A DNA stretch of 32,000 nt from Kineococcus radiotolerans SRS30216 = ATCC BAA-149. GTDB taxonomy: Bacteria > Actinomycetota > Actinomycetes > Actinomycetales > Kineococcaceae. A program made the translations under genes and the position numbers. The stretch is taken from positions 3,270,001 through 3,302,000 of the forward strand of contig NC_009664.2 of the NCBI RefSeq assembly GCF_000017305.1, read 5' to 3'. Below, piece after piece: positions 7,347 through 32,000 of this stretch. Each line of letters begins with the position of its first letter. The stretch's first letter is position 1. The notes under the pieces were generated by a model. That model had not been told where the DNA came from. It searched no databases and worked only from the letters and a program-made list of their open reading frames with translations.

Positions 7347-8012
7347 TCAGCGCCGCATGACGCCGCGCGCCAGCCGGTTCCCGAGGACCTGCCCCACCTG
7401 GACGATGATGATGATCGCGGCGACGGCCACGTAGATGATCCCGTAGTCGTAGCGCTGCTTGCCGTAGGTGATGGCGTAGTCGCCCAGGCCCCCGCCGCCG
7501 ACGAGACCCGCCTGGGCGGTCATGTCGACGATGCCGACGAAGATGAACGTGTACCCCAGGATGAGCGGCCCCAGGCCCTCGGGAATGACGACGCCCAGGA
7601 GGATCGACAACCGCGACGCCCCCACCGCGCGCGCGGCCTCGACGACCCCGGGGTCCACGCCGACGAGGCTCTGCTCGACGATGCGCGCCACCGCGAACGC
7701 CGCGGCGAGCGAGATCGCGAACGTCACCGCCTCCGTCCCGATGGTCGTCCCCACCGCCGCGATCTGCAGCGGCGTGATCGCGGCCAGGAAGATGACGAAC
7801 GGGATGGGGCGCACCAGGTTCACGACGAAACCGATGAGCACGAACACGAACCGGTTGCCGAACAGGTTCCCCGGTCGCGTCGCGTACAGCGCGGTGCCCA
7901 GGACCAGGCCCAGGACGCCGGCGGCGACGAGGGAGACGATCGACATGAGCAGCGTCTGCCAGATCGCGTCCTTGAACACGTCGAGCGTGTCGAGGAATCC
8001 GCTGAAGTCCAC
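7347..8012 (-). CDS. metI: Methionine ABC transporter permease
   Basis: 221 aa, 5 TM segments. EAA-loop EAARAVGASRLSILLGVVIPE. GTG start 1 nt after the metN stop. Confidence 0.9.
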   Translation of the reverse strand: MDFSGFLDTLDVFKDAIWQTLLMSIVSLVAAGVLGLVLGTALYATRPGNLFGNRFVFVLIGFVVNLVRPIPFVIFLAAITPLQIAAVGTTIGTEAVTFAISLAAAFAVARIVEQSLVGVDPGVVEAARAVGASRLSILLGVVIPEGLGPLILGYTFIFVGIVDMTAQAGLVGGGGLGDYAITYGKQRYDYGIIYVAVAAIIIIVQVGQVLGNRLARGVMRR

Positions 8013-8013
8013 G

Positions 8014-9033
8014 TCAGGCCTCCTCGTCCACGTCGATCCCGGCCGCGCGCAACGCGTCCAGGGCGGCGTCGGCGTCGCCGCCGAGCTCGTAGGTCAGCGA
8101 CCCGGCCCGCCGCTCGCGGATCTCCGAGACCCCGCCGTAGACGAGTTCCGCGCTCGTCCCGGTCTCCCGGAACGCGGCGTCGATCCGCTGCTGCAGACCG
8201 GGTTCGTCGGTGATGCGGACGGTGACCAGGCGGCCGGGGTGGTGGGTGCGCAGCCGCGCCAGGGTTTCCGCGGAGGGGCGGTCGTGGGTGGCGCTGCGCA
8301 CGAAGCGCTGCGCCGCCGCCGTCCGCGGGCGGGAGAACACGTCGTAGACGTCGCCCACCTCGACGACGCGGCCGTCCTCCATCACCGCGACCCGGTCGGC
8401 GATCTGCCGCACGGCCTCCATCTCGTGGGTGATGACGACGATGGTCACGCCGAGTTCGGTGTTGACCCGGCGCAGCAGCGCGAGCACCTCGGAGGTCGTC
8501 TCGGGGTCCAGGGCGCTGGTCGCCTCGTCGCACAGCAGCAGCGGGGGGTTCGTCGCCAGGGCGCGGGCGATGCCGACGCGCTGCTTCTGCCCGCCGGAGA
8601 GCTGCTCGGGGTAGGCGTGGGCCCGGTCCAGCAGGCCCACGAAGTCCAGGAGTTCCGCGGTGCGGCGGTCGCGCTCGGCCGGGGCGACCCCGGCGACCTT
8701 GAGGGGGTAGGCGACGTTGCCGGCGACGGTCCGGGACCGGAACAGGTTGAACTGCTGGAAGATCATGCCGATCCGGGAGCGCGCCTTGCGCAGCTCGCCC
8801 TCGGACAGCTTCGTCAGGTCCTGGCCGGCGACGTGGACGCTGCCCGAGGTGGGCTTCTCCAGGGCGTTGATCAACCGCACGAGGGTGGACTTGCCGGCCC
8901 CGGAGTAGCCGATGACCGCGAGGACCTCGCCCTCGGCGACGTCGAGGGAAACGGCGTCGACCGCCGTGACGGTCTTGCCGTCACGGCGGTCGAAGCTCTT
9001 GCTGACCTCGGTCAGCGAGATGAGCGTGCTCAC
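8014..9033 (-). CDS. metN: Methionine ABC transporter ATP-binding protein
   Basis: 339 aa. Walker A GYSGAGKST, signature LSGGQKQRVGIARAL, Walker B LLLCDEATSALD. C-terminal NIL-type regulatory domain region. Start overlaps the metQ stop by 4 nt. Confidence 0.92.
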   Translation of the reverse strand: MSTLISLTEVSKSFDRRDGKTVTAVDAVSLDVAEGEVLAVIGYSGAGKSTLVRLINALEKPTSGSVHVAGQDLTKLSEGELRKARSRIGMIFQQFNLFRSRTVAGNVAYPLKVAGVAPAERDRRTAELLDFVGLLDRAHAYPEQLSGGQKQRVGIARALATNPPLLLCDEATSALDPETTSEVLALLRRVNTELGVTIVVITHEMEAVRQIADRVAVMEDGRVVEVGDVYDVFSRPRTAAAQRFVRSATHDRPSAETLARLRTHHPGRLVTVRITDEPGLQQRIDAAFRETGTSAELVYGGVSEIRERRAGSLTYELGGDADAALDALRAAGIDVDEEA

Positions 9034-9980
9034 TTGCCCTGGGCGGCCTTCGCGTCAGACTCGACCTTGGTCAGCTCGGCCTGCAGGTCGGCCGCGGGGG
9101 TGTCCTGGACGATGGCGCTGGGGTTGTCCTGCAGGAACACCTCCTGCACGGCCGGGTCGTGCCAGAGGGCGGCGAGCTCCAGGTACGTCTCGTTCGCCGC
9201 GTCCTCCTTGCGGGCGGTGAAGATGTTCACGTACGGGGCGGCCGCGGCGGAGGTCGGGTCGTCCTGGACGATGACGGAGTCGGCGGGCAGCTTCGCCGCG
9301 GTGGCGTAGTTGTTGTTGACGATGGCCGCGGCCACCGAACCGCTCTGCAGCGCGCTGGCCGTCTGGTCGGCGGCCACCGGGGTGACCTCGACCTTGGCGG
9401 ACTCGATGTCGTTGGTGGTGGAGAACGCGGTCCCGCCGTCCTTCAGGGTGACCAGGCCGGCCTCCTGCAGCACCAGCAGGCCGCGAGCCTCGTTGATCGC
9501 GTCGTTGGGGATGGCGACCTTGGCGTCGGCGGGCAGCTCCGCCGCCGACTTCGCGGTGAGGGAGTACAGCGGCAGCGGGTACACGGCGGTGGCCCCGATG
9601 GGCTGCAGGTCGTCGCCGGCCTCGACGTTGTAGTTCGCCAGGTACTGGATGTGCTGGAACTGGTTGAGGTCGAGCTCCCCCTGCTTCAGCGCCGGGTTCG
9701 GCAGCGTGTAGTCGGAGAAGTTCACCAGCTCGACGGTGACGCCCAGCTGCGACTGCGCGAGCTCGGTGTAGGTGTTCCAGTACGGCAGCGACTTGTCGGC
9801 GACGCCGATCGTGACCGTCTCGCCGGAACCGGAACCGGCGGCCGCCGTGCTGGTGGTGTCGTCGCGGGTGCCGAGGACGACGGCGACGATCACGGCGATC
9901 ACGGCCAGGGCGGCGACGATCCCGATGAGGAGACCGCGACGCTTGGGCTTGTCGGGCAGAGCGGGGGCGGGGCTGGACAC
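9030..9980 (-). CDS. metQ: Methionine ABC transporter substrate-binding protein (NlpA/MetQ family)
   Basis: MetQ-like body (TVTIGVAD...GVTVELVNFSDYTLPNPALKQGELDLNQFQHIQYL). Start moved from tracked ATG 10151, which lies inside the riboswitch, to GTG 9980. That GTG is preceded by GGAGAG and followed by an N-terminal TM/signal anchor. Confidence 0.85.
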   Translation of the reverse strand: MSSPAPALPDKPKRRGLLIGIVAALAVIAVIVAVVLGTRDDTTSTAAAGSGSGETVTIGVADKSLPYWNTYTELAQSQLGVTVELVNFSDYTLPNPALKQGELDLNQFQHIQYLANYNVEAGDDLQPIGATAVYPLPLYSLTAKSAAELPADAKVAIPNDAINEARGLLVLQEAGLVTLKDGGTAFSTTNDIESAKVEVTPVAADQTASALQSGSVAAAIVNNNYATAAKLPADSVIVQDDPTSAAAAPYVNIFTARKEDAANETYLELAALWHDPAVQEVFLQDNPSAIVQDTPAADLQAELTKVESDAKAAQGK

Positions 9981-10048: not shown

Positions 10049-10160
10049 GATCCGCGCTTGCCGGACGTTTTCGTCCGGCCGGGTCTTCACCTGGGGCACC
10101 CCGCCGCGGAGGAGGGTTGCCGGACAGCGAGCCAGGGCTTGTCGCTGTCACTCATGACCT
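10049..10160 (-). promoter_or_regulatory. SAM-IV riboswitch (S-adenosylmethionine sensing) in the metQNI leader
   Basis: The minus-strand RNA is AGGUCAUGAGUGACAGCGACAAGCCCUGGCUCGCUGUCCGGCAACCCUCCUCCGCGGCGGGGUGCCCCAGGUGAAGACCCGGCCGGACGAAAACGUCCGGCAAGCGCGGAUC. It matches, block by block, my recollection of the actinobacterial SAM-IV motif (GGUCAUGAGUG.CAGCG.CAAGCCC.GGCU.GCUG.CCGGCAACCCUCC...GCGG.GGGGUGCCCC.GGUGA.GACC...GGCAAGCGCGG.UC). Its position upstream of a methionine importer fits. Confidence 0.8.
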
Positions 10161-24929: not shown

Positions 24930-25493
24930 GTGCGCACCCTCATCGTCACCGCCTTCACCTCCCTCGACGGCGTCGTGGAGGCACCGGGCGGCGAACCCGG
25001 CTACCGCAACGCCGGCTGGACGTTCCGGACCGTCGAGTTCGACGAGGCCGTCTACGAGATCAAGGGCCGCGAGCAGGAGGAGACCACCGCCCTGCTGCTG
25101 GGCCGCACCAGCTACCAGGCCTTCGCCCCGGTCTGGCCGACCATGGACGACTTCGCCGGGTACAACGCCATGCCCCGCTACGTGGTGTCCACCACCCTCG
25201 AGCAGGACGACGAGCGCTGGCCCGCGACGATCCTGCGCTCCCTCGACGACGTCGCCGCGCTCAAGCGGACCGACGGCGGCCCGATCGCGGTGCACGGCAG
25301 CGCGACCCTGGCCCGCTCGCTGGCGGACGCGGGTCTGGTGGACCGCTACCACCTGCTGGTCTTCCCCGTCCTGCTCGGGGCCGGGAAGCGGCTGTTCAGC
25401 GACACCGACAAGGACGAGCAGCGGCTGGCGGTCCTGGAGGCCCAGACCTACGGCAACGGGGTCACCAAGCTGGTCTACGACGTCGTCCGGTGA
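24930..25493 (+). CDS. Dihydrofolate reductase family protein (RibD C-terminal-domain-like reductase)
   Basis: 187 aa from GTG 24930 (AGGAGA 5 nt upstream). Pattern VRTLIVTAFTSLDGVVEAPGG..., LLGRTSYQAF, PIAVHGSATLARSL, DRYHLLVFPVLLGAGKRLF is typical of the RibD_C/DHFR-like family. Confidence 0.8.
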   Translation: MRTLIVTAFTSLDGVVEAPGGEPGYRNAGWTFRTVEFDEAVYEIKGREQEETTALLLGRTSYQAFAPVWPTMDDFAGYNAMPRYVVSTTLEQDDERWPATILRSLDDVAALKRTDGGPIAVHGSATLARSLADAGLVDRYHLLVFPVLLGAGKRLFSDTDKDEQRLAVLEAQTYGNGVTKLVYDVVR

Positions 25494-25531
25494 GCCCCGG
25501 GGGACGGCCTCGCGTCGATTACCGTCTCCCC

Positions 25532-26824
25532 GTGAGCACCTCGACGACGTCGTCCACCGGCACCACCACCACCGCCCCCGGCGTGAACTGGGCCCGCAAC
25601 TACGCCTTCAGCGCCGGCACCCTGCACCGGCCCACGACCCTGGACGGGCTGCGGGCCGTCGTCGGGTCCACGGCGCGAGTGCGGGCGGTGGGAACGCGCC
25701 ACTGCTTCAACGACATCGCCGACTCCCCGGGCGACATGGTGACCCTGGAGGCGCTGCCGGTCGAGGTGGAGGCCGACTCCGCCGCCGGGGCGGTGCGGGT
25801 GAGCTCGGCGACCAGCTACGGCGTCCTGGCCCAGCGGTTGCAGGACGCCGGCCTGGCGCTGGCCACGATGGCCTCGCTGCCCCACATCAGCGTCGGCGGC
25901 GCGGTCGCGACCGCGACCCACGGGTCGGGGGACCGGACGCAGAACCTCGCCGCGGCCGTCCGCGCGGTGGAGCTCGTCACCGCCGACGGCGACGTGCGGC
26001 GCGTGCAGCGCGGGGACGGGGAGTTCGCCGGCAGCGTCGTCGCCCTGGGGTCCCTGGGCGTCGTGACCCACCTGGAGCTGGACGTGCTGCCGACCTACGA
26101 CGTGCGCCAGGACGTCTACTCCGGGTTGTCGTTCGAGGCGTTCACCGAGAACTTCGACGCCGTCACCTCCGCGGCCTACAGCGTCAGCGTCTACACGAAC
26201 TGGATCGGGACCGACACCACCCAGGTGTGGCTGAAGACCCGCACGAGCGACGCCGCCGAGGCCCCCGCCGAGCTGTTCGGCGCCGTCCGCGCGGGCGAAC
26301 CCCTGCACCCGCTGCCCGAGGTCGACGTCCGCAACGCCACCGAGCAGCTCGGCGTCCCCGGGCCCTGGCACGAGCGGCTGCCGCACTTCCGGTTCAGCTT
26401 CGCCCCCAGCAACGGCGAGGAGCTCCAGGTCGAGTACCTCGTCGCCCGCGAGAACGCCCTCGCCGTCGTCGCCGCGCTGCGCGAGCTCGGCCCCTCGATC
26501 GCGCCGCTGCTGCACATGTGCGAGATCCGCACCGTTGCCGCCGACGACCTGTGGCTCTCCAACTCCCACCAGCGCGACAGCGTCGCCTTCCACTTCACCT
26601 ACAAGCAGCGCCAGGCCGAGGTCATCGCCGCCATCGCCGAGGTCGAGGCGGCGCTGTCCGGGCTGGACGTGCGCCCGCACTGGGGCAAGCTGTTCGCCGC
26701 CGACGCGCAGCGGATCGCGGGCCTCTACCCGCGCTTCGACGACGCGCGGGCGCTGGTCGCCCGCCACGACCCCCGCCGGAAGTTCGCCAACGCCTACACC
26801 GACCGGGTCGGGCTGACCGCCTGA
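25532..26824 (+). CDS. FAD-binding oxidase of the D-arabinono-1,4-lactone oxidase / alditol (xylitol) oxidase family
   Basis: C-terminal 430 codons of tracked ORF 24743..26824. FAD_binding_4-like N-half (VRAVGTRHCFNDIA, HISVGGAVATATHGSG) and an ALO-type C-half ending RPHWGKLF. TACCGT lies 6 nt upstream of GTG 25532 (leaderless pattern). Confidence 0.8.
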   Translation: MSTSTTSSTGTTTTAPGVNWARNYAFSAGTLHRPTTLDGLRAVVGSTARVRAVGTRHCFNDIADSPGDMVTLEALPVEVEADSAAGAVRVSSATSYGVLAQRLQDAGLALATMASLPHISVGGAVATATHGSGDRTQNLAAAVRAVELVTADGDVRRVQRGDGEFAGSVVALGSLGVVTHLELDVLPTYDVRQDVYSGLSFEAFTENFDAVTSAAYSVSVYTNWIGTDTTQVWLKTRTSDAAEAPAELFGAVRAGEPLHPLPEVDVRNATEQLGVPGPWHERLPHFRFSFAPSNGEELQVEYLVARENALAVVAALRELGPSIAPLLHMCEIRTVAADDLWLSNSHQRDSVAFHFTYKQRQAEVIAAIAEVEAALSGLDVRPHWGKLFAADAQRIAGLYPRFDDARALVARHDPRRKFANAYTDRVGLTA

Positions 26825-26888: not shown

Positions 26889-27500
26889 TCAGAGCGGCAG
26901 GGGGTCGCGTCCCACGTCGTGGAACTCGACCTCGGCCTCGGCCAGGCGCGTCTCCAGCGCGTCGAGGCCGCGGTCGAGGAGGAACCGGCGCTCCCCCTCG
27001 TGCAGGGGCACCGCCTGCAGCCAGCGCACCTCGGTGCCGCCCTGGAACTCGTCGGCCTCCAGCCGGTAGCGCGCCAGCCGCGGGAAGGTGCCCGGGGCGG
27101 TGAGCAGCAGGTGCTCGGTGCGCCCGCCCAGCAGGTCGGCGACGACGCCGGGGAACACCGTCCCGGGACGCAGCGGCCACGCCTCGCCGACGGCCGCGAA
27201 CGCCGACGCCACCAGCAGCCCCGTCGCCAGCCGGGGTTCCACCCCGCCCAGGACGGTCACCAGCTCGACCCGGACGTCGCTGCCGTCCACCCGGTTCGGC
27301 GCGCGGTGCAGCGTCAGCGTCGAGACGGAGGTGAACCCCGCCGCCGGGGCGTCGCGGGCCGTCAGGACGTCCAGGGACCGCGTCCCGTCCCGGTTGAGGT
27401 GCTCCTCGATCTCCGGGCGCCCGTCGGGGACGAGCTGCTCCCCGACGAACCGGGCCATCCGGACCTCGGCGTCGGTGGGCGGGGGCGCCTCGGAGCTCAC
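26889..27500 (-). CDS. Suppressor-of-fused (SUFU-like) domain protein
   Basis: C-terminal 203 codons of tracked ORF 26889..28622. Overall pattern ([22 protein letters not shown]..., VELVTVL..., [12 protein letters not shown]..., [16 protein letters not shown]) resembles bacterial SUFU-domain proteins as I remember them. GTG 27500 overlaps the cofG stop by 4 nt. Confidence 0.6.
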
Positions 27501-28789
27501 GCGACCACCCGGCCGACGGGCCGCGCCGACTCCTCGGCCAGACCCGTCACCGGGTCCGCGAGCGCCGCGAGGGCGGGGTGGAGGGCGGCGTCGATCCAGC
27601 GCGTGGACCCGGCGAGGGCGTCGAGCACGAACCGCGGGTGGGCGGTGAGGCGCTCGGCGAGGCGGAACCCCGCCGCCCGGGTCGTGCGGGCCAGGTCGTC
27701 CAGCTGCGGCCAGGGGCGCTCGGGGTTCACGTGGTCGGGGGTCAGCGGGGACACCCCGCCCCAGTCGTCGACGCCGGCGGCGAGCAGCTGCTCGCGCTGA
27801 CCGGGGTCGGACAGGTTCGGCGGGGCCTGCAGGGAGACCCCCGGCCCCAGCAGCAGGCGGGCGACGGCGATCGTGGCGAGGTACTCGGAGTGGTCGAGGT
27901 CGTCCTCGCCGCGCATGGCGGTGTCGTCCTTGGCGCGGAAGTTCTGGACGATGACCTCCTGCACCCCGTCGAACTCCGCGACGACGTCGCGGATCGCGAG
28001 GATCGAGTCCACGCGCTCGGCGGGGGTCTCCCCGATGCCCACGAGGATCCCGGTGGTGAAGGGGACCCCGGCGCGCCCGGCGTCGCGCAGCACCCGCAGC
28101 CGCAGGGCGGGGTCCTTGTCGGGGGAGCCGTAGTGGACCTGGCCGGGTTCGGTCCACAGCCGGGTGGAGGTGGTCTCCAGCATCATCCCCATCGAGGGGG
28201 CCAGCGGCCGCGAGGCCAGCAGGTCCGCGTGGGTCATGACCCCGGGGTTGAGGTGCGGCAGCAGCCCGGTCTCGTCCAGGACGCGGCGCGCCAGGTGCTG
28301 CACGTACTCCAGGGTGGAGGCGAAGCCCCGCGCCGTCAGCCACGCCCGGGCCGCGGGCCAGCGGTCCTCGGGGGCGTCGCCGAGGGTGAACAGCGCCTCC
28401 TTGCAGCCCATCGCCGCGCCCTCGCGGGCGATGGCCAGGACGTCGTCCTCGGACAGGTACAGCACGGGCAGCCGGCCGGGGACGGTCGCGAAGGTGCAGT
28501 AGTGGCAGCGGTCCCGGCACAACCGGGTGACGGGGACGAAGACCTTGCGGGAGTAGGTGACGACCCCGGGCCGGCCCGCGGCGGCCATGGCCGCGTCGCG
28601 CACCGGCGCGGCCAGCGCGCACAGCGCGCCCAGGTCCTCGCCGCGCGCGTGCAGGAGGACCTCGGCGGTGGCGGCGTCGAGGTCGCCGCCCGCCGCGGCA
28701 CGCAGGGCGGCGGCGAGGTCGCCGGGCGGGGGGACGGCGGCCGCCGGGGCCGCGTGCCGGCGCCGGGGGGAGGGGAGGGAGTCGCTCAT
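27497..28789 (-). CDS. cofG: FO synthase subunit CofG (stand-alone homologue of the FbiC N-terminal half; radical SAM)
   Basis: C-terminal 430 codons of tracked ORF 27497..29470. Intact radical-SAM motif [14 protein letters not shown]. Long colinear similarity to the remembered M. tuberculosis FbiC N-half ([104 protein letters not shown]). GGAAGG RBS before ATG 28789. Confidence 0.88.
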
Positions 28790-28806: not shown

Positions 28807-29433
28807 TCAGGTCAGCGGGATCGCCGCGGCGGCGAGGGCCTCGCGGGTGCGGGGGCCCACCCCCAGGGCGAGGGCCTCGGCCAGGTCCTCGACGGTGTCG
28901 ACGTCGCGGCGCAGCGAGGGCAGGGCCGCGCTCAGCGGGCGCGCCCCGGCGTCGAGGTGGGCCCGGGCCGAGCCCGGCCCGAAGCGGTGCGGGGGAGCGC
29001 CGTCGCGGTCGGCGAGCAGCACGCTGCCCCGGCCGTCGGCGTCGGTCACCAGCGCCGGTCCCGGCCGGGCCAGGGCGTCGGCGAGCGCCGCCCCCAGGTC
29101 CTCCGCGCGCAGCGCCGGCAGGTCGCCGAGCAGGACGGCCGTCGGACCGCGCTCCAGGCACGTCACCCCGGCCTCCACGGCCGCCGCGAGACCGGGCCGG
29201 CCCGCGGAGACGGTGACGGCTCCCGCGGAGCGCGCGGCGGCGGTGACCTCGGGGTCGTCGCTGACGCAGACGACGAGCCCCACCCCGGGGGTGCGCAGGC
29301 ACACCGCGAGGCAGTCCAGCGCCATGGCCAGCGCCAGGGACCGGCGGGCGGGACCGGGCAGGGCCAGCCGGGACTTCGCCCCGTCCCCGCCCTTGACGGG
29401 GACGACGACCCGCCAGCCGCTCACGTGCGTCAC
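28807..29433 (-). CDS. fbiD: 2-phospho-L-lactate / phosphoenolpyruvate guanylyltransferase (CofC/FbiD)
   Basis: C-terminal 208 codons of tracked ORF 28807..30294. N-terminus [17 protein letters not shown] and LLGDLPAL are typical of CofC/FbiD. GGGGGAG lies upstream of GTG 29433. 17 nt upstream of cofG. Confidence 0.8.
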
Positions 29434-29496: not shown

Positions 29497-29949
29497 GTGA
29501 GCACCCCTCCGCGGTTGACCGTCCCCGCCCGCCGGGTCGTGCGGACCGCCGTCGGCCCCGCGCCCCTCGACGTCGACGAGCACGCCCGCCTGGTCGGTGA
29601 CCGCGCGGCCGGGGCGGTCGTGACCTTCGCCGGGGTCGTCCGCGACCACGATCACGGCCGCTCGGTGCGGGAGCTGGAGTACGTGGGCCACCCCACCGCC
29701 GACGCCGTGCTGGCCGCCGTCGTCGCCGAGGTCGTCGCCGACAGCCCCGTGGACGCCGTCGCGGTCAGCCACCGGCTCGGGCACCTGGCCGTGGGTGACG
29801 TGGCGCTGGCCGTCGCCGTCTCCGCCGCGCACCGGGGGGAGGCGTTCGCGGTGTGCGCCCGGCTGGTCGACGAGGTCAAGGACCGGCTGCCGGTGTGGAA
29901 GCACCAGCACTTCGACGACGGCACCTCGGAGTGGGTGGCCTGCCCGTGA
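29497..29949 (+). CDS. moaE: Molybdopterin synthase catalytic (large) subunit MoaE
   Basis: C-terminal 150 codons of tracked ORF 28957..29949. [66 protein letters not shown] parallels E. coli MoaE (GAVVTFTGKVRNH..., HRIGEL, SAHRSSAFEA..., APFWKRE). Confidence 0.85.
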
Positions 29950-30965
29950 GCGCGGTGAGGGCCGCGCTGGCCGCGGCCGCCCGCGACCACCGCGCGCTCG
30001 GCGACGCCGAGGCGGTCGCGCTGCTGGGCGCCGACGGGGCGGAGCTGGAGGAGCTGGCCGGGCTCGCGGACGCGGTGCGCCGGGCCCGGGTGGGCGAGGA
30101 CCTGACGTTCGTGGTGAACCGCAACCTCGACGGCACCCGCGTGGGCGACCCGGCCGCGCGCGGCCTCCTGCACGACCTCGTGCAGGAGGCCGCCGCGCTC
30201 GGGGCGACCGAGGTCTGCGTGCAGGGGCCGGTGCCGGCCTCCGCGGGGCCGGAGGGCTACCTGGAGCTGGTCGAGGCCGTCGCGCGGGCGGCACCGGGGA
30301 TCCACCTGCACGCCTTCCGGCCCCCGGAGCTGCTGGAGGCCGCGCACCGCCGCGGGTCGAGCCTGCGCGCGTTCCTCGTCGCGGCCGCGGGGGCGGGGCT
30401 GGGGTCGGTGCCCGGCACGGCCGCGAAGGTCCTCGACGACGACGTCCGGACCGCGCTGAACGGCGGGGTGCCCGACCTGCCGGTGGCGCGCTGGGTGGAG
30501 ACGGTCGTCACCGCGCACGAGGTGGGGCTGACCTCCACGAGCACCCTGGTCCACGGCGGTCCGGAGACCCCGGCGCAGCAGGTCGCGCACCTGCGGCTGC
30601 TGGCCGGCGTGGCCGCGCGGACGGGGGGCTTCACCGAGTTCATCGCCATGCCGTCCCCCGCCGGCCCCGGCCCGTCGCCGCGCGCCACGCGGGCGCTGCA
30701 CGCCGTGGCGCGGCTGCTGCTGGACGGGTACGTCGACCACGTCCAGGCGGCCTGGCCCAAGCACGGCCCGGACCTGACCGAGCAGCTGCTGCGCGGCGGG
30801 GCCGACGACCTCGGCGGGTTGCTGCTCGACGGTTCGCTGGACCCCGCGGCCGGCCAGGAGGCGGGCACCACCCTGAGCCGCGAGGGGGCCGCGGCGCTCG
30901 CGGACCGGCTGGGCCGGCCGCTGCGCCAGCGCACGACCCGCTACGGCGAGCCCGCGGTCCCGTGA
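29946..30965 (+). CDS. CofH-like protein (homologue of the FbiC C-terminal half) lacking the radical-SAM CxxxCxxC cluster motif
   Basis: C-terminal 339 codons of tracked ORF 29853..30965. Colinear with the remembered FbiC C-half (LTFVVNRN, GATEVCVQG, HLHAF, PGTAAKVLDDDVR, TAHEVGL.S.ST, RTGGFTEF, ADDLGG, GRPLRQRTTRY). The segment that should carry NINFTN.C...C..C is replaced by LDGTRVGDPAARGLLHDLVQEA, about 18 residues shorter. The protein has only one Cys. GTG 29946 overlaps the moaE stop. Confidence 0.8.
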   Translation: MSAVRAALAAAARDHRALGDAEAVALLGADGAELEELAGLADAVRRARVGEDLTFVVNRNLDGTRVGDPAARGLLHDLVQEAAALGATEVCVQGPVPASAGPEGYLELVEAVARAAPGIHLHAFRPPELLEAAHRRGSSLRAFLVAAAGAGLGSVPGTAAKVLDDDVRTALNGGVPDLPVARWVETVVTAHEVGLTSTSTLVHGGPETPAQQVAHLRLLAGVAARTGGFTEFIAMPSPAGPGPSPRATRALHAVARLLLDGYVDHVQAAWPKHGPDLTEQLLRGGADDLGGLLLDGSLDPAAGQEAGTTLSREGAAALADRLGRPLRQRTTRYGEPAVP

Positions 30966-32000
30966 CCGGCGCCTCGGCCGGTCCCGCGACCGAGGTCGAC
31001 GTCGCGGTCGTCGGTGCGGGGTTCGCGGGGATCGGCGCGGCTCTGCGGCTGGCCCGCCGCGGCCGGGAGAGCTTCGTCGTCCTCGAGCGCGGGGACGACG
31101 TGGGCGGCACCTGGCGGGACAACACCTACCCCGGGGTCGCCTGCGACGTGCCCTCGCACCTGTACTCGTTCTCCTTCGCCCCCAAGCCGGACTGGTCGCG
31201 GGTGTTCGCGCCGGGGGCGGAGATCCAGGAGTACCTGCGGGCCTGCGCCCGGGAGGTCGCGGGGAACCTCCGGCTGCGGACCGAGGTGCTGCGGGCGCGG
31301 TGGGAGGGTTCCCGCTGGGTCCTGACCACCTCGACGGGGCCGGTGCGGGCGCGCGTCCTGGTCCTGGCGGCGGGGCGCCTCACCGAACCCCGCACCCCCG
31401 CGCTGCCCGGTCTGGACGGGTTCGACGGGCCGGTGTTCCACACCGCGCGCTGGGACCACGCCGTCGACCTCGCCGGGGCCCGGGTCGGGGTCGTCGGGAC
31501 GGGGGCCTCCGCGGTGCAGGTCGTGCCCCGGATCGCGGGGACCGCGGCCCACCTGACCGTCTTCCAGCGCAGCGCGCCCTACGTCGTCCCGCGCGGGGAC
31601 CGGGAGTTCAGCGCGGAGGAGCTGGCGGGGTTCGTCGCCGACCCCGCCCTGCCGGCGGCGCTGCGGGAGGAGACGTTCACCGAGATGGAACGGGGCCTGG
31701 CCGCGCGCCGCCTCGTGGCGCAGGCCCTGGACCCGTTGCGCCGCAGGGCGCTGGACCACCTCGCGGCGCAGGTCCCGGACCCGGTCCTGCGGGCCGCGCT
31801 GACCCCGGACTACGAGGTCGGGTGCAAGCGCGTCCTGCTCTCCGACGACTTCTACCCGGCGCTGGGCCGCGACGACGTGACGCTGGTCGCCTCGGCGCTG
31901 CGCGGGTTCGAGGGCCGGACGGCGCGCGCCGCCGACGGTTCCCGCCACCCCCTCGACGTGCTCGTGCTGGCGACGGGCTTCCACGCCGCCCGCCAGCCCT
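30962..32000 (+). CDS. Type I Baeyer-Villiger / flavin-containing monooxygenase (EthA-like), 3'-partial
   Basis: Not in the ORF track because it runs off the window; I translated it by hand with no stop from GTG 30962 to 32000. FAD site VAVVGAGFAGIG, DVGGTWRDNTYPG, BVMO fingerprint FDGPVFHTARWD (FxGxxxHxxxW[P/D]), NADPH site VGVVGTGASAVQ. The start overlaps the cofH-like stop by 4 nt. Confidence 0.85.
   Translation, partial: MTGASAGPATEVDVAVVGAGFAGIGAALRLARRGRESFVVLERGDDVGGTWRDNTYPGVACDVPSHLYSFSFAPKPDWSRVFAPGAEIQEYLRACAREVAGNLRLRTEVLRARWEGSRWVLTTSTGPVRARVLVLAAGRLTEPRTPALPGLDGFDGPVFHTARWDHAVDLAGARVGVVGTGASAVQVVPRIAGTAAHLTVFQRSAPYVVPRGDREFSAEELAGFVADPALPAALREETFTEMERGLAARRLVAQALDPLRRRALDHLAAQVPDPVLRAALTPDYEVGCKRVLLSDDFYPALGRDDVTLVASALRGFEGRTARAADGSRHPLDVLVLATGFHAARQP

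What the first reader, a model, noticed from the sequence alone, without database searches (positions are those of the whole stretch)
30126..30200. CofH-like protein has lost the radical-SAM [4Fe-4S] cysteine triad by an in-frame replacement
Directly after the conserved FVVNRN block, FbiC/CofH proteins carry INFTN.C...C..C (the CxxxCxxC SAM-cluster ligands) and then about 25 more residues before GATEVC.QG. This ORF instead reads LDGTRVGDPAARGLLHDLVQEAAAL (25 residues, against about 43 in my recollection of M. tuberculosis FbiC). It has no cysteine there, and the whole 339-aa protein has a single Cys.

Downstream blocks remain well conserved and the reading frame is intact with high codon-3 G/C. 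So this is not a fresh pseudogene. It looks like a maintained pseudo-enzyme, possibly a substrate-binding or scaffold partner for CofG or for the coupled MoaE/BVMO.
Basis: partly seen in the sequence, partly recalled or inferred. Interest (0 to 1): 0.7.

Follow-up and report, generated by a model that had tools for sequence, protein, structure and literature searches.

The report
Cluster-less CofH paired with a BVMO
This Kineococcus gene is a well-conserved relative of the F420-precursor enzyme CofH that has lost its iron-sulfur/SAM site. In dozens of actinobacterial genomes it sits directly next to a Baeyer-Villiger flavin monooxygenase, which suggests an undescribed oxygen-dependent way to do one of the two "radical SAM" steps of deazaflavin (FO/F420) synthesis.

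Summary
ORF 29946-30965 (+), 339 aa, is 100% identical to a Kineococcus radiotolerans protein annotated "FO synthase". It is a clear CofH/FbiC-C-terminal homologue, but the 43-residue block carrying CxxxCxxC is replaced by 25 Cys-free residues (30126-30200). The protein has one Cys in total.

This is not an artefact or a pseudogene:
- All 120 nearest database homologues lack the motif.
- 53 cluster-less domain sequences (the window's plus 52 from related loci) form one clade, separate from the 29 canonical FbiC domains.
- dN/dS is 0.16-0.28, the same range as the neighbouring CofG and monooxygenase genes.
- AlphaFold gives a confident MqnE-like barrel (pLDDT 94).

The new result is the gene context. 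Every cluster-less locus with enough downstream DNA carries a type I Baeyer-Villiger monooxygenase (BVMO) just downstream. No canonical locus does. The reverse also holds: only BVMOs at least ~50% identical to the partner have the cluster-less gene upstream.

CofG, which keeps its own cluster motif, is adjacent in most loci, or fused to the cluster-less domain in 10 loci. MoaE is a neighbour only in Kineococcus.

Best reading (inferred, ~0.55): CofH' plus the BVMO replace the radical-SAM CofH half-reaction of FO synthesis. I found no description of this in the literature held here.

The parts
29946..30965 (+). CofH' gene: a CofH/FbiC-C-terminal homologue of 339 aa with no [4Fe-4S]/SAM motif and a single Cys (C91).
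   Evidence: Translation. NCBIfam CofGH 2e-92 and TIGR03551 248 bits, both below cut-off. No Pfam Radical_SAM hit. 100% identical to K. radiotolerans 'FO synthase' P0001. AF2 pLDDT 94. Best fold match is MqnE, TM 0.84.
30108..30125 (+). FVVNRN, strand beta1, conserved in both canonical and cluster-less forms.
30126..30200 (+). The reported segment: 25 Cys-free residues (L61-L85). They replace the canonical 43-residue INFTNxCYxGCRFCAF... cluster loop plus helix alpha1.
   Evidence: In the model this segment is the end of beta1, a short turn, and helix 69-84.
30201..30230 (+). GATEVCVQGP: strand beta2, ending in QGP where canonical CofH has QGG (the position of the radical-SAM 'GGE' motif).
   Evidence: Group consensus comparison. 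Strand 89-93 in the model. The role of the motif rests on general radical-SAM knowledge, so this is inference.
30318..30320 (+). R125. AFRPxE replaces canonical AFSPME. R is invariant in the cluster-less clade and S is invariant in canonical sequences.
   Evidence: It lies just after strand beta3, residues 120-122.
30426..30428 (+). K161. PGTAA[K/R]ILDD replaces canonical PGTAAEILDD, a reversal of charge after strand beta4.
   Evidence: (pattern used in the scan).
30564..30566 (+). E207. E replaces the canonical invariant D, after strand beta5.
30828..30845 (+). D295-G296...P300. GGLLLDGxLxPxAG replaces canonical GGTLMEETISRMAGS, directly after the last barrel strand.
30962..32000 (+). Type I Baeyer-Villiger monooxygenase, translationally coupled to CofH' (GTGA overlap). 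It is cut by the window end; the full length is 487 aa in the same organism.
   Evidence: Pfam FMO-like/Pyr_redox_3. Best solved relative is phenylacetone monooxygenase, 1.6e-64. BVMO motifs GGTWRDNTYPGVACD and FDGPVFHTARWD. Full gene seen in L164/L165.
27497..28789 (-). Stand-alone CofG (430 aa) that keeps its CxxxCxxC motif (CRDRCHYC).
   Evidence: TIGR03550 440 bits, above the 213 cut-off. Pfam Radical_SAM. P0121 is 100% identical.
28807..29433 (-). CofC/FbiD-like guanylyltransferase, an F420 biosynthesis gene, upstream of CofG in the same operon.
   Evidence: Pfam CofC 3.9e-9. Gene call of 208 aa in L165.
29497..29949 (+). MoaE, first gene of the MoaE-CofH'-BVMO string. This adjacency is specific to Kineococcus and is probably incidental.
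   Evidence: Pfam MoaE 1e-33. Adjacent only in the Kineococcus loci. MoaD and MoaA lie beyond the BVMO.

Best explanation
The ORF encodes CofH', a descendant of the radical-SAM enzyme CofH (the C-terminal half of FbiC). CofH' keeps the full barrel fold but has lost the [4Fe-4S] cluster loop and has changed several conserved residues on the barrel's catalytic face.

CofH' works as an obligate pair with the type I Baeyer-Villiger monooxygenase (FAD, NADPH, O2) encoded immediately downstream. Together they supply CofG with the 4-hydroxybenzylated 5-amino-6-ribitylaminouracil intermediate. Canonical CofH makes that intermediate from tyrosine by radical chemistry. FO, and from it F420, would then need only one radical-SAM step, the one done by CofG.

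**Shown here**
- The loss of the motif.
- Conservation of the clade and purifying selection on it.
- The intact fold.
- The exclusive, two-way gene pairing with the BVMO.
- Frequent adjacency or fusion to CofG and other F420 genes.

**Inferred**
- That the pair performs the CofH half-reaction.

**Speculative chemistry**
- The BVMO oxidises a 4-hydroxyphenyl-CH2-C(=O)-R compound, such as 4-hydroxyphenylpyruvate or 4-hydroxyphenylacetaldehyde, to a 4-hydroxybenzyl ester. This would parallel phenylacetone to benzyl acetate in PAMO.
- CofH' binds that tyrosine-shaped ester in the ancestral tyrosine pocket and expels the carboxylate to give a p-quinone methide.
- C5 of the diaminouracil attacks the quinone methide. 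The result is the same product as canonical CofH, with no SAM used.
For: **Homology and fold**
- CofGH model 2e-92.
- AF2 pLDDT 94, pTM 0.92.
- Foldseek top hits are MqnE (TM 0.84), then HydE, BioB, ThiH and HydG.

**Loss of the radical-SAM apparatus across a whole clade**
- 120 of 120 nearest homologues lack CxxxCxxC.
- C91 is the only invariant Cys.
- Canonical QGG becomes QGP, AFSPME becomes AFRPxE, and TAAE becomes TAA[K/R].

**Maintained function**
- 72 invariant columns in 91 sequences.
- dN/dS is 0.16-0.28, against 0.10-0.22 for CofG and 0.07-0.28 for the BVMO in the same genome pairs.
- Group-specific residues are at least 90% conserved and lie after strands beta2-beta6 and the last strand.
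- The clade is monophyletic: 53 cluster-less against 29 canonical sequences.

**Pairing with the BVMO**
- In the 80 genome loci, every cluster-less locus with downstream DNA has the BVMO. The gap is about -6 to +110 bp in most, up to ~480 bp in three, and 850-1400 bp in four loci; two of these four were inspected and carry an alpha/beta-hydrolase gene in the gap. None of the 29 canonical loci has a BVMO.
- Reverse scan: BVMOs at least ~50% identical to the partner have CofH' directly upstream in 12 of 13 contigs with room, and the 13th keeps a CofH' C-terminal remnant. None of 66 BVMOs at or below 50% identity does.
- Pairwise distances of CofH' and the BVMO correlate at r = 0.87, against 0.64 for CofH' with CofG.

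**The BVMO looks catalytically competent**
- The motifs GGxWxxxxYPGxxxD and FxGxxxHxxxW are present.
- The Arg and Asp that align with PAMO's catalytic pair are present.
- The best solved relative is PAMO, 1.6e-64.

**Link to FO/F420**
- CofG is adjacent in about 40 of 50 loci.
- In 10 loci CofG and CofH' are one ORF with a single CxxxCxxC, located in the CofG half.
- CofC is adjacent in Kineococcus.
- FbiA and FbiB are adjacent in L016.
- K. radiotolerans encodes homologues of the FDR-A family of F420H2-dependent reductases (PMC3288000).

**Modular replacement is plausible**
- The CofH product reaches the CofG domain by diffusion, not channelling (review PMC8498797).

**No second FO synthase seen in Kineococcus**
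- No fused Kineococcus FbiC appears among the top 120 CofG homologues, and no canonical Kineococcus CofH among the top 120 CofH homologues.
Against: - There is no biochemical or genetic evidence. The function is inferred from context.
- I could not scan whole genomes. A canonical FbiC or CofH elsewhere in K. radiotolerans, or in the other hosts, is not excluded. The database searches are not exhaustive: K. xinjiangensis FbiC itself was not returned when used as the query.
- In Actinoplanes and Nocardia the pair is not within 10 kb of CofG. That also fits a supplementary role or a different role.
- CofG remains a radical-SAM enzyme, so oxygen tolerance alone does not explain the swap.
- BVMO activity on 4-hydroxyphenylpyruvate or 4-hydroxyphenylacetaldehyde, and a quinone-methide transferase activity in a radical-SAM-type barrel, have no precedent that I could verify.
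- PAMO being the top PDB hit says little about substrate. Steroid and cyclohexanone monooxygenases score almost as well.
Confidence: 0.55

Rival explanations
1. CofH' is a catalytically dead pseudo-enzyme. It acts only as a structural or substrate-delivering partner of CofG. The real CofH chemistry is provided by a canonical FbiC/CofH elsewhere in the genome, and the BVMO is only a neighbour.
For: The cluster and probable SAM contacts are lost. CofH' is fused or adjacent to CofG in most loci. Whole genomes could not be checked for a canonical copy.
Against: The residues that differ from canonical CofH are polar, at least 90% conserved, and lie on the catalytic face. The BVMO pairing is exclusive in both directions and the two genes co-vary at r = 0.87. 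In 10 lineages the FbiC-type fusion itself carries the cluster-less domain. Kineococcus shows only stand-alone CofG and no canonical CofH among the top hits.
Confidence: 0.12
2. CofH' and the BVMO make or degrade something other than the FO intermediate, for example a modified deazaflavin, another 4-hydroxybenzylated pyrimidine, or an aromatic catabolite. The association with CofG would then reflect shared substrates or regulation.
For: The pair is separate from CofG in Actinoplanes (where a HAD hydrolase follows the BVMO) and in Nocardia. BVMOs are typical of catabolism and secondary metabolism. An alpha/beta-hydrolase lies between the genes in some Microbacteriaceae.
Against: About 40 of 50 loci have CofG adjacent or fused. 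F420 genes cofC, fbiA and fbiB are neighbours in several lineages. No other gene is conserved around the pair. Much of canonical CofH's conserved sequence outside the cluster region is kept.
Confidence: 0.2
3. CofH' is still a radical-SAM-type enzyme that obtains a cluster from non-canonical ligands or from a partner protein in trans.
For: Non-canonical cluster sites are known in some SAM radical enzymes such as ThiC and Dph2 (my own knowledge). The barrel is intact.
Against: The K. radiotolerans protein has one Cys in total, and the family has only one invariant Cys. Three motifs on strands beta2, beta3 and beta4 are changed, including a Glu-to-Lys/Arg charge reversal. Pfam Radical_SAM gives no hit on the window protein.
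Confidence: 0.05
4. The feature is a sequencing or assembly indel, or a recently inactivated pseudogene.
For: None beyond the missing motif.
Against: The same architecture is found in more than 50 independent genomes and many metagenomes. The identical protein was called on 16 contigs, including two separate sequencing-run assemblies. GC3 is 0.99. dN/dS is well below 1.
Confidence: 0.01

Closest known systems
CofH / C-terminal domain of FbiC (5-amino-6-(D-ribitylamino)uracil--L-tyrosine 4-hydroxyphenyl transferase, EC 2.5.1.147; TIGR03551)
   Same: Clear homologue over the full length, at 41-47% identity to canonical actinobacterial FbiC domains. It has the same barrel fold class and shares many conserved blocks: VVNRN, LGATE.C.QG, H.HAF, PGTAA.ILDD, TAH..G, TGGF.E, GRp.RQRTT.YG. 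It shows the same genomic partnership with CofG and, in 10 lineages, the same FbiC-type fusion.
   Different: It has no CxxxCxxC, with about 18 residues deleted around the cluster loop. QGG is replaced by QGP, S by R125, E by K/R161, D by E207, and EETISR by DGxLxP. It scores below the TIGR03551 cut-off. It is always paired with a BVMO, which canonical CofH never is.
MqnE / MqnC (aminofutalosine synthase and cyclic dehypoxanthinyl futalosine synthase; PDB 6xi9/6xig)
   Same: MqnE is the closest solved structure: TM 0.84, with 21-23% identity in the structural alignment. Sequence search gives E = 8e-13.
   Different: MqnE is a bona fide radical-SAM enzyme with a cluster, working in menaquinone biosynthesis. 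There is no menaquinone context here.
Phenylacetone monooxygenase (PAMO, PDB 1w4x) and other type I BVMOs, compared with the partner gene
   Same: E = 1.6e-64. Both Rossmann motifs and both BVMO fingerprints are present, as are the Arg and Asp that align with PAMO's catalytic pair. PAMO turns a benzyl ketone into a benzyl ester, which is the type of reaction proposed here.
   Different: The partner is about 50 residues shorter (485-500 aa against about 540). It forms its own subfamily, at least ~50% identical internally, and is tied to CofH'. Its substrate is unknown. The last fingerprint residue varies (D/N/R/H/E).
Oxygen-independent radical-SAM / oxygen-dependent enzyme pairs for one biosynthetic step, such as HemN/HemF or BchE/AcsF (from my own knowledge)
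   Same: The logic would be the same: aerobes replace a radical-SAM step with an O2-using enzyme.
   Different: In those pairs the two enzymes are unrelated. Here the old radical-SAM barrel is retained, stripped of its cluster, and combined with a flavoenzyme. Only one of the two radical-SAM steps is replaced.

Membership tests
Radical SAM superfamily | A CxxxCxxC (or variant) triad after strand beta1 that binds the [4Fe-4S] cluster. | tested here: not met
   There is no such motif. The protein has one Cys in total, and only one Cys is invariant in 91 family members.
Radical SAM superfamily | A match to Pfam PF04055 Radical_SAM at the gathering score. | tested here: not met
   No hit at E <= 0.01 for the window protein. 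Some relatives carry only 'weak' precomputed hits.
Radical SAM superfamily | SAM-binding motifs: the GGE-type motif at the end of beta2, and acidic or polar ribose contacts after beta4. | tested here: inconclusive
   QGG is replaced by QGP and TAAE by TAA[K/R] at those positions. Their roles are assigned from general radical-SAM knowledge, not from a CofH structure.
Radical SAM superfamily | A (beta/alpha) partial or full TIM-barrel fold of the MqnE/HydE/BioB type. | tested here: met
   AF2 pLDDT 94. Foldseek hits MqnE at TM 0.84, then HydE, BioB, ThiH and HydG.
CofH (TIGR03551, EC 2.5.1.147) | HMM score at or above the curated cut-off of 374.1 bits. | tested here: not met
   248.3 bits.
CofH (TIGR03551, EC 2.5.1.147) | Nearest family by sequence, with genomic association to CofG and F420 genes. 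| tested here: met
   The best NCBIfam hits are CofGH and CofH. CofG is adjacent or fused in about 40 of 50 loci, and cofC, fbiA and fbiB are neighbours in several.
CofH (TIGR03551, EC 2.5.1.147) | SAM-dependent radical cleavage of tyrosine and 4-hydroxybenzyl transfer to 5-amino-6-ribitylaminouracil. | not testable with these tools
   This needs an enzyme assay. The radical route is implausible without a cluster, but the net transfer may be retained by another mechanism (inference).
Type I Baeyer-Villiger monooxygenase (partner gene 30962->) | Two GxGxxG Rossmann motifs and the fingerprints [A/G]GxWxxxx[F/Y]P[G/M]xxxD and FxGxxxHxxxW[P/D]. | tested here: met
   The window protein has GAGFAG, GTGASA, GGTWRDNTYPGVACD and FDGPVFHTARWD. 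These are conserved across partners, with variation only in the last fingerprint residue. PAMO is the best PDB match.
Type I Baeyer-Villiger monooxygenase (partner gene 30962->) | Baeyer-Villiger activity on a defined ketone or aldehyde. | not testable with these tools
   The substrate is unknown. The proposal of a 4-hydroxyphenyl-CH2-carbonyl compound is inference.

The most novel reading that the evidence does not exclude
Many aerobic Actinobacteria make the F420 headgroup FO with only one radical-SAM step. The CofH step is done instead by a cluster-free descendant of CofH working with a dedicated Baeyer-Villiger monooxygenase that uses O2 and NADPH. The likely route is a 4-hydroxybenzyl ester or quinone-methide donor, not a tyrosine-derived radical. 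This would be the first case of a radical-SAM barrel repurposed as a non-radical transferase inside its original pathway. It would also contradict the statement that FO synthesis universally needs two radical-SAM domains.
Probability: 0.45. Interest if true: 0.9.

Novelty: new variant of a known kind. Interest (0 to 1): 0.8.

Why it matters
[quoted passage not shown] If CofH' plus the BVMO do the CofH step, several things follow.

1. F420 biosynthesis has an unrecognised oxygen-dependent branch, present in common soil and clinical genera such as Gordonia, Nocardia, Actinoplanes and Microbacteriaceae.
2. Genome surveys that score F420 capacity with CofH or radical-SAM models will misjudge these organisms. 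Current "FO synthase" annotations imply a cofactor that cannot be bound.
3. Heterologous FO/F420 production, held back partly by oxygen-sensitive and SAM-consuming FbiC, would gain a simpler module.
4. It would show how a radical-SAM active site can be rebuilt for polar chemistry while keeping its substrates.

Even if the function turns out to be different, an exclusive CofH'-BVMO gene pair conserved across at least seven actinobacterial lineages is a well-defined target for experiment.

Tried and rejected
- **Assembly error or pseudogene.** Rejected on comparative and selection data.
- **MoaE as a functional partner.** Rejected. MoaE is adjacent only in Kineococcus. Two other loci have MoaE about 7 kb away. 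The K. radiotolerans pair sits between moaE and moaD/moaA.
- **Other conserved neighbours.** Clustering of all ORFs within about 7-8 kb in 53 loci found nothing shared by more than 12 loci apart from CofH'/CofG and the BVMO.
- **A canonical CofH in Kineococcus.**
  - A search with the canonical CofH domain of K. xinjiangensis (L053) returned no Kineococcus protein in the top 120.
  - A search with the window's CofG returned only stand-alone Kineococcus CofGs.
  - Both searches are non-exhaustive, so this is weak evidence.
- **Literature.** Eight full-text searches found nothing describing a cluster-less CofH or a BVMO in FO synthesis.
  - Ney et al. 2017 (ISME J) could not be opened.
  - No MqnE structure paper was held, so SAM-contact residues could not be checked against a publication.
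- **Look-up failure.** The look-up of P0105 (Nocardia) failed because the protein is not on record.
- **Rfam.** The scan found no riboswitch near the locus.
Full report
**1. What is in the window**

The window is high-GC (75%) actinobacterial DNA. The target protein is 100% identical to a Kineococcus radiotolerans protein annotated "FO synthase" (P0001).

The gene runs 29946-30965 on the + strand. Its GTG start overlaps the stop of moaE (GTGA). Its stop overlaps the GTG start of the next gene (GTGA), so the three genes are translationally coupled.

It lies between FVVNRN (residues 55-60) and GATEVC (residues 86-91). The protein has a single Cys (C91). GC3 is 0.99.

**2. Homology and fold**

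- NCBIfam places the protein nearest the CofH half of bifunctional CofGH (2e-92) and CofH TIGR03551, but below both curated cut-offs.
- Pfam finds no Radical_SAM domain.
- An AlphaFold2 model built on a 91-sequence family alignment is confident: pLDDT 94, pTM 0.92.
- Its best structural neighbours are MqnE (TM 0.84), then HydE, BioB, ThiH and HydG.
- The barrel is therefore intact. What is missing is the loop after strand beta1 that carries the cluster ligands.

**3. It is a family, not an accident**

- All 120 best database homologues lack CxxxCxxC and have a linker of 21-27 residues. They come from Kineococcus, Actinoplanes, Actinomycetospora, Nocardia, Trebonia and many soil metagenomes.
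- At 50% clustering, at least 16 of the best 150 representatives are cluster-less.
- A scan of one genome per species returned 80 loci. About 50 are cluster-less and 29 are canonical fused FbiC.
- In a neighbour-joining tree the 53 cluster-less sequences form one clade, separate from the 29 canonical ones.
- Pairwise dN/dS is 0.16-0.28 among closer orthologues. That is the same range as the adjacent CofG (0.10-0.22) and monooxygenase (0.07-0.28) genes in the same genome pairs.
- The identical protein was called on 16 contigs of the assembly collection, including two separate sequencing-run assemblies.
- An assembly indel and a plain pseudogene are both excluded.

**4. The active-site face is remodelled, not decayed**

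I compared consensus sequences of the two groups.

| Canonical CofH | Cluster-less clade | Window residue |
|---|---|---|
| cluster loop after beta1 | deleted | 61-85 |
| QGG | QGP | 93-95 |
| AFSPME | AFRPxE | R125 |
| PGTAAEILDD | PGTAA[K/R]ILDD | K161 |
| GHVD | GHvE | E207 |
| GGTLMEETISRMAGS | GGlLLDGxLxPxAG | D295, G296, P300 |

Each replacement is at least 90% conserved within the cluster-less clade. In the model these positions follow strands beta2, beta3, beta4, beta5, beta6 and the last strand. That is the C-terminal face where barrel enzymes bind their substrates.

From general radical-SAM knowledge, the ends of beta2 and beta4 contact the methionine and ribose parts of SAM. I therefore read these changes as loss of SAM binding. 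This is inference.

Many other CofH blocks are retained. That fits continued binding of CofH-like substrates.

**5. The decisive context: an exclusive partner**

- Every cluster-less locus with enough downstream sequence has a gene of about 485-500 aa just downstream.
- The gap is about -6 to +110 bp in most loci and up to ~480 bp in three.
- In four loci the gap is 850-1400 bp. The two I inspected carry an alpha/beta-hydrolase gene there.
- None of the 29 canonical loci has this gene.

The partner is a type I Baeyer-Villiger monooxygenase.
- Its best solved relative is phenylacetone monooxygenase (1.6e-64).
- It has two Rossmann motifs.
- It has the BVMO motif GGTWRDNxYPGxxCD and the fingerprint FxGxxxHxxxW.
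- The Arg and Asp that align with PAMO's catalytic pair are present.

The reverse test used the partner alignment on metagenome contigs.
- BVMOs at least ~50% identical to the partner have a cluster-less CofH' directly upstream in 12 of 13 contigs with room.
- The 13th keeps only the last ~20 codons of CofH'.
- None of 66 more distant BVMOs (50% identity or less) has CofH' upstream.

Pairwise distances of CofH' and the BVMO correlate at r = 0.87, against 0.64 for CofH' with CofG. No other gene is conserved around the pair.

**6. Link to FO/F420**

CofG, with its own CxxxCxxC intact, is arranged in several ways.

| Lineage | Position of CofG |
|---|---|
| Actinomycetospora | upstream in the same operon |
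| Gordonia | after the BVMO |
| Kineococcus (including this window) | divergent, transcribed with cofC |
| Microbacteriaceae, Arthrobacter, Nocardioides bruguierae (10 loci) | fused to CofH' in one FbiC-like ORF with a single cluster motif |

- One MAG has fbiB and fbiA next door.
- K. radiotolerans encodes homologues of the FDR-A family of F420H2-dependent reductases (PMC3288000).
- Kineococcus xinjiangensis has a canonical fused FbiC and no BVMO (L053). This fits the two arrangements being alternatives.
- The F420 review states that FO synthesis uses two radical-SAM domains in all studied producers. It also states that the CofH product reaches CofG by diffusion (PMC8498797). That makes a modular swap of the CofH step feasible.

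**7. Most likely mechanism**

The shown facts are the cluster loss, the conservation, the intact fold, and the pairing with the BVMO and CofG.

My inference (about 0.55) is that CofH' plus the BVMO deliver the 4-hydroxybenzylated diaminouracil to CofG.

The chemistry is speculative. A BVMO can convert an aryl-CH2-carbonyl compound to a benzyl ester, as PAMO does with phenylacetone. 4-Hydroxybenzyl oxalate, derived from 4-hydroxyphenylpyruvate, is nearly the same shape as tyrosine and could occupy the old tyrosine site. Loss of the carboxylate would give a p-quinone methide. The nucleophilic C5 of 5-amino-6-ribitylaminouracil could attack it and yield the canonical CofH product without SAM. The accessory esterase-type genes in some lineages are weakly consistent with an ester intermediate.

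**8. Rivals**

- Inert scaffold for CofG, 0.12.
- A different product or pathway, 0.20. This is favoured by Actinoplanes and Nocardia, where CofG is not nearby.
- Cryptic cluster or a cluster in trans, 0.05.
- Artefact or pseudogene, 0.01.

The main gap is that I could not scan whole genomes for a canonical CofH. The two indirect searches found none in Kineococcus but are not exhaustive.

**9. Novelty and verdict**

Eight full-text searches found no description of a cluster-less CofH or of a BVMO in FO synthesis. No curated NCBIfam model reaches its cut-off.

I class this as a new variant of a known kind (FO synthase). Interest is 0.8.

Noticed in passing
window 10049-10159 (-), with genes 9030-9980 (-), 8014-9033 (-), 7347-8012 (-): A SAM-IV riboswitch (RF00634, 115.6 bits) lies upstream of an NlpA/MetQ-type lipoprotein, an ABC ATPase with a NIL domain, and a permease. 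This is a metNIQ-like methionine importer under SAM control.
   Followed up: partly
window 24930-25493 (+) and 25490-26824 (+): A RibD_C-type reductase and an ALO/FAD_binding_4 (VAO-type) flavoprotein oxidase lie just beyond the SUFU-CofG-CofC operon. A RibD-like reductase near FO genes could relate to supply of the diaminouracil substrate. I did not test whether this is more than local synteny.
   Followed up: no
window 26889-27500 (-): A SUFU-domain protein (203 aa) has its start overlapping the CofG stop by 4 nt, so it is probably co-translated with CofC-CofG. Its function in this context is unknown.
   Followed up: no
L164 3519-5355 / L165 8516-9860 (K. radiotolerans DNA beyond the window end): Downstream of the BVMO, on the opposite strand, lie a MauE-like gene, a ThiS/MoaD-like gene and MoaA. 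The CofH'-BVMO pair therefore sits inside a molybdopterin gene neighbourhood, which explains the MoaE adjacency.
   Followed up: yes
L052 5791-6570 and L061 11122-11952; L002 12490-13086: In some Microbacteriaceae an alpha/beta-hydrolase gene lies between the fused CofG-CofH' gene and the BVMO. In Actinoplanes a HAD hydrolase follows the BVMO. These may be accessory ester- or phosphate-processing steps.
   Followed up: partly
L091 483-1886 and 1928-3328: On this metagenome contig a partner-type BVMO (58% identity) is preceded only by the last ~20 codons of CofH' (LGRTPRQRTTTY), joined to a glycosyltransferase-like ORF. It is either a decayed locus or a chimeric assembly.
   Followed up: partly
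L050 (Arthrobacter sp. 21a14 plasmid CP192488.1, 215 kb): A fused CofG-CofH' gene and the BVMO are carried on a plasmid. This suggests the module can move horizontally.
   Followed up: no
P0140 (674 aa): This protein combines Radical_SAM (CofG, 75% identical to the window's CofG) with CofC/NTP_transf_3 domains. It appears to be a CofG-CofC fusion.
   Followed up: no
window protein residues 204-206 and 236-240, against the family alignment A1: The K. radiotolerans subclade differs further from the rest of the cluster-less family. It has GGPE instead of GHVE after strand beta5, and a deletion of about 13 residues after FIAMP.
   Followed up: no
L088, L089, L092, L097 and P0371, P0376, P0404, P0427: Some cluster-less members keep a linker of near-canonical length (for example NRNLTSSGLR...TFTLDDVGAIA.DA..LGATE) that resembles the canonical alpha1 helix but has no cysteines. 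These may be evolutionary intermediates between canonical CofH and the short-linker form.
   Followed up: no
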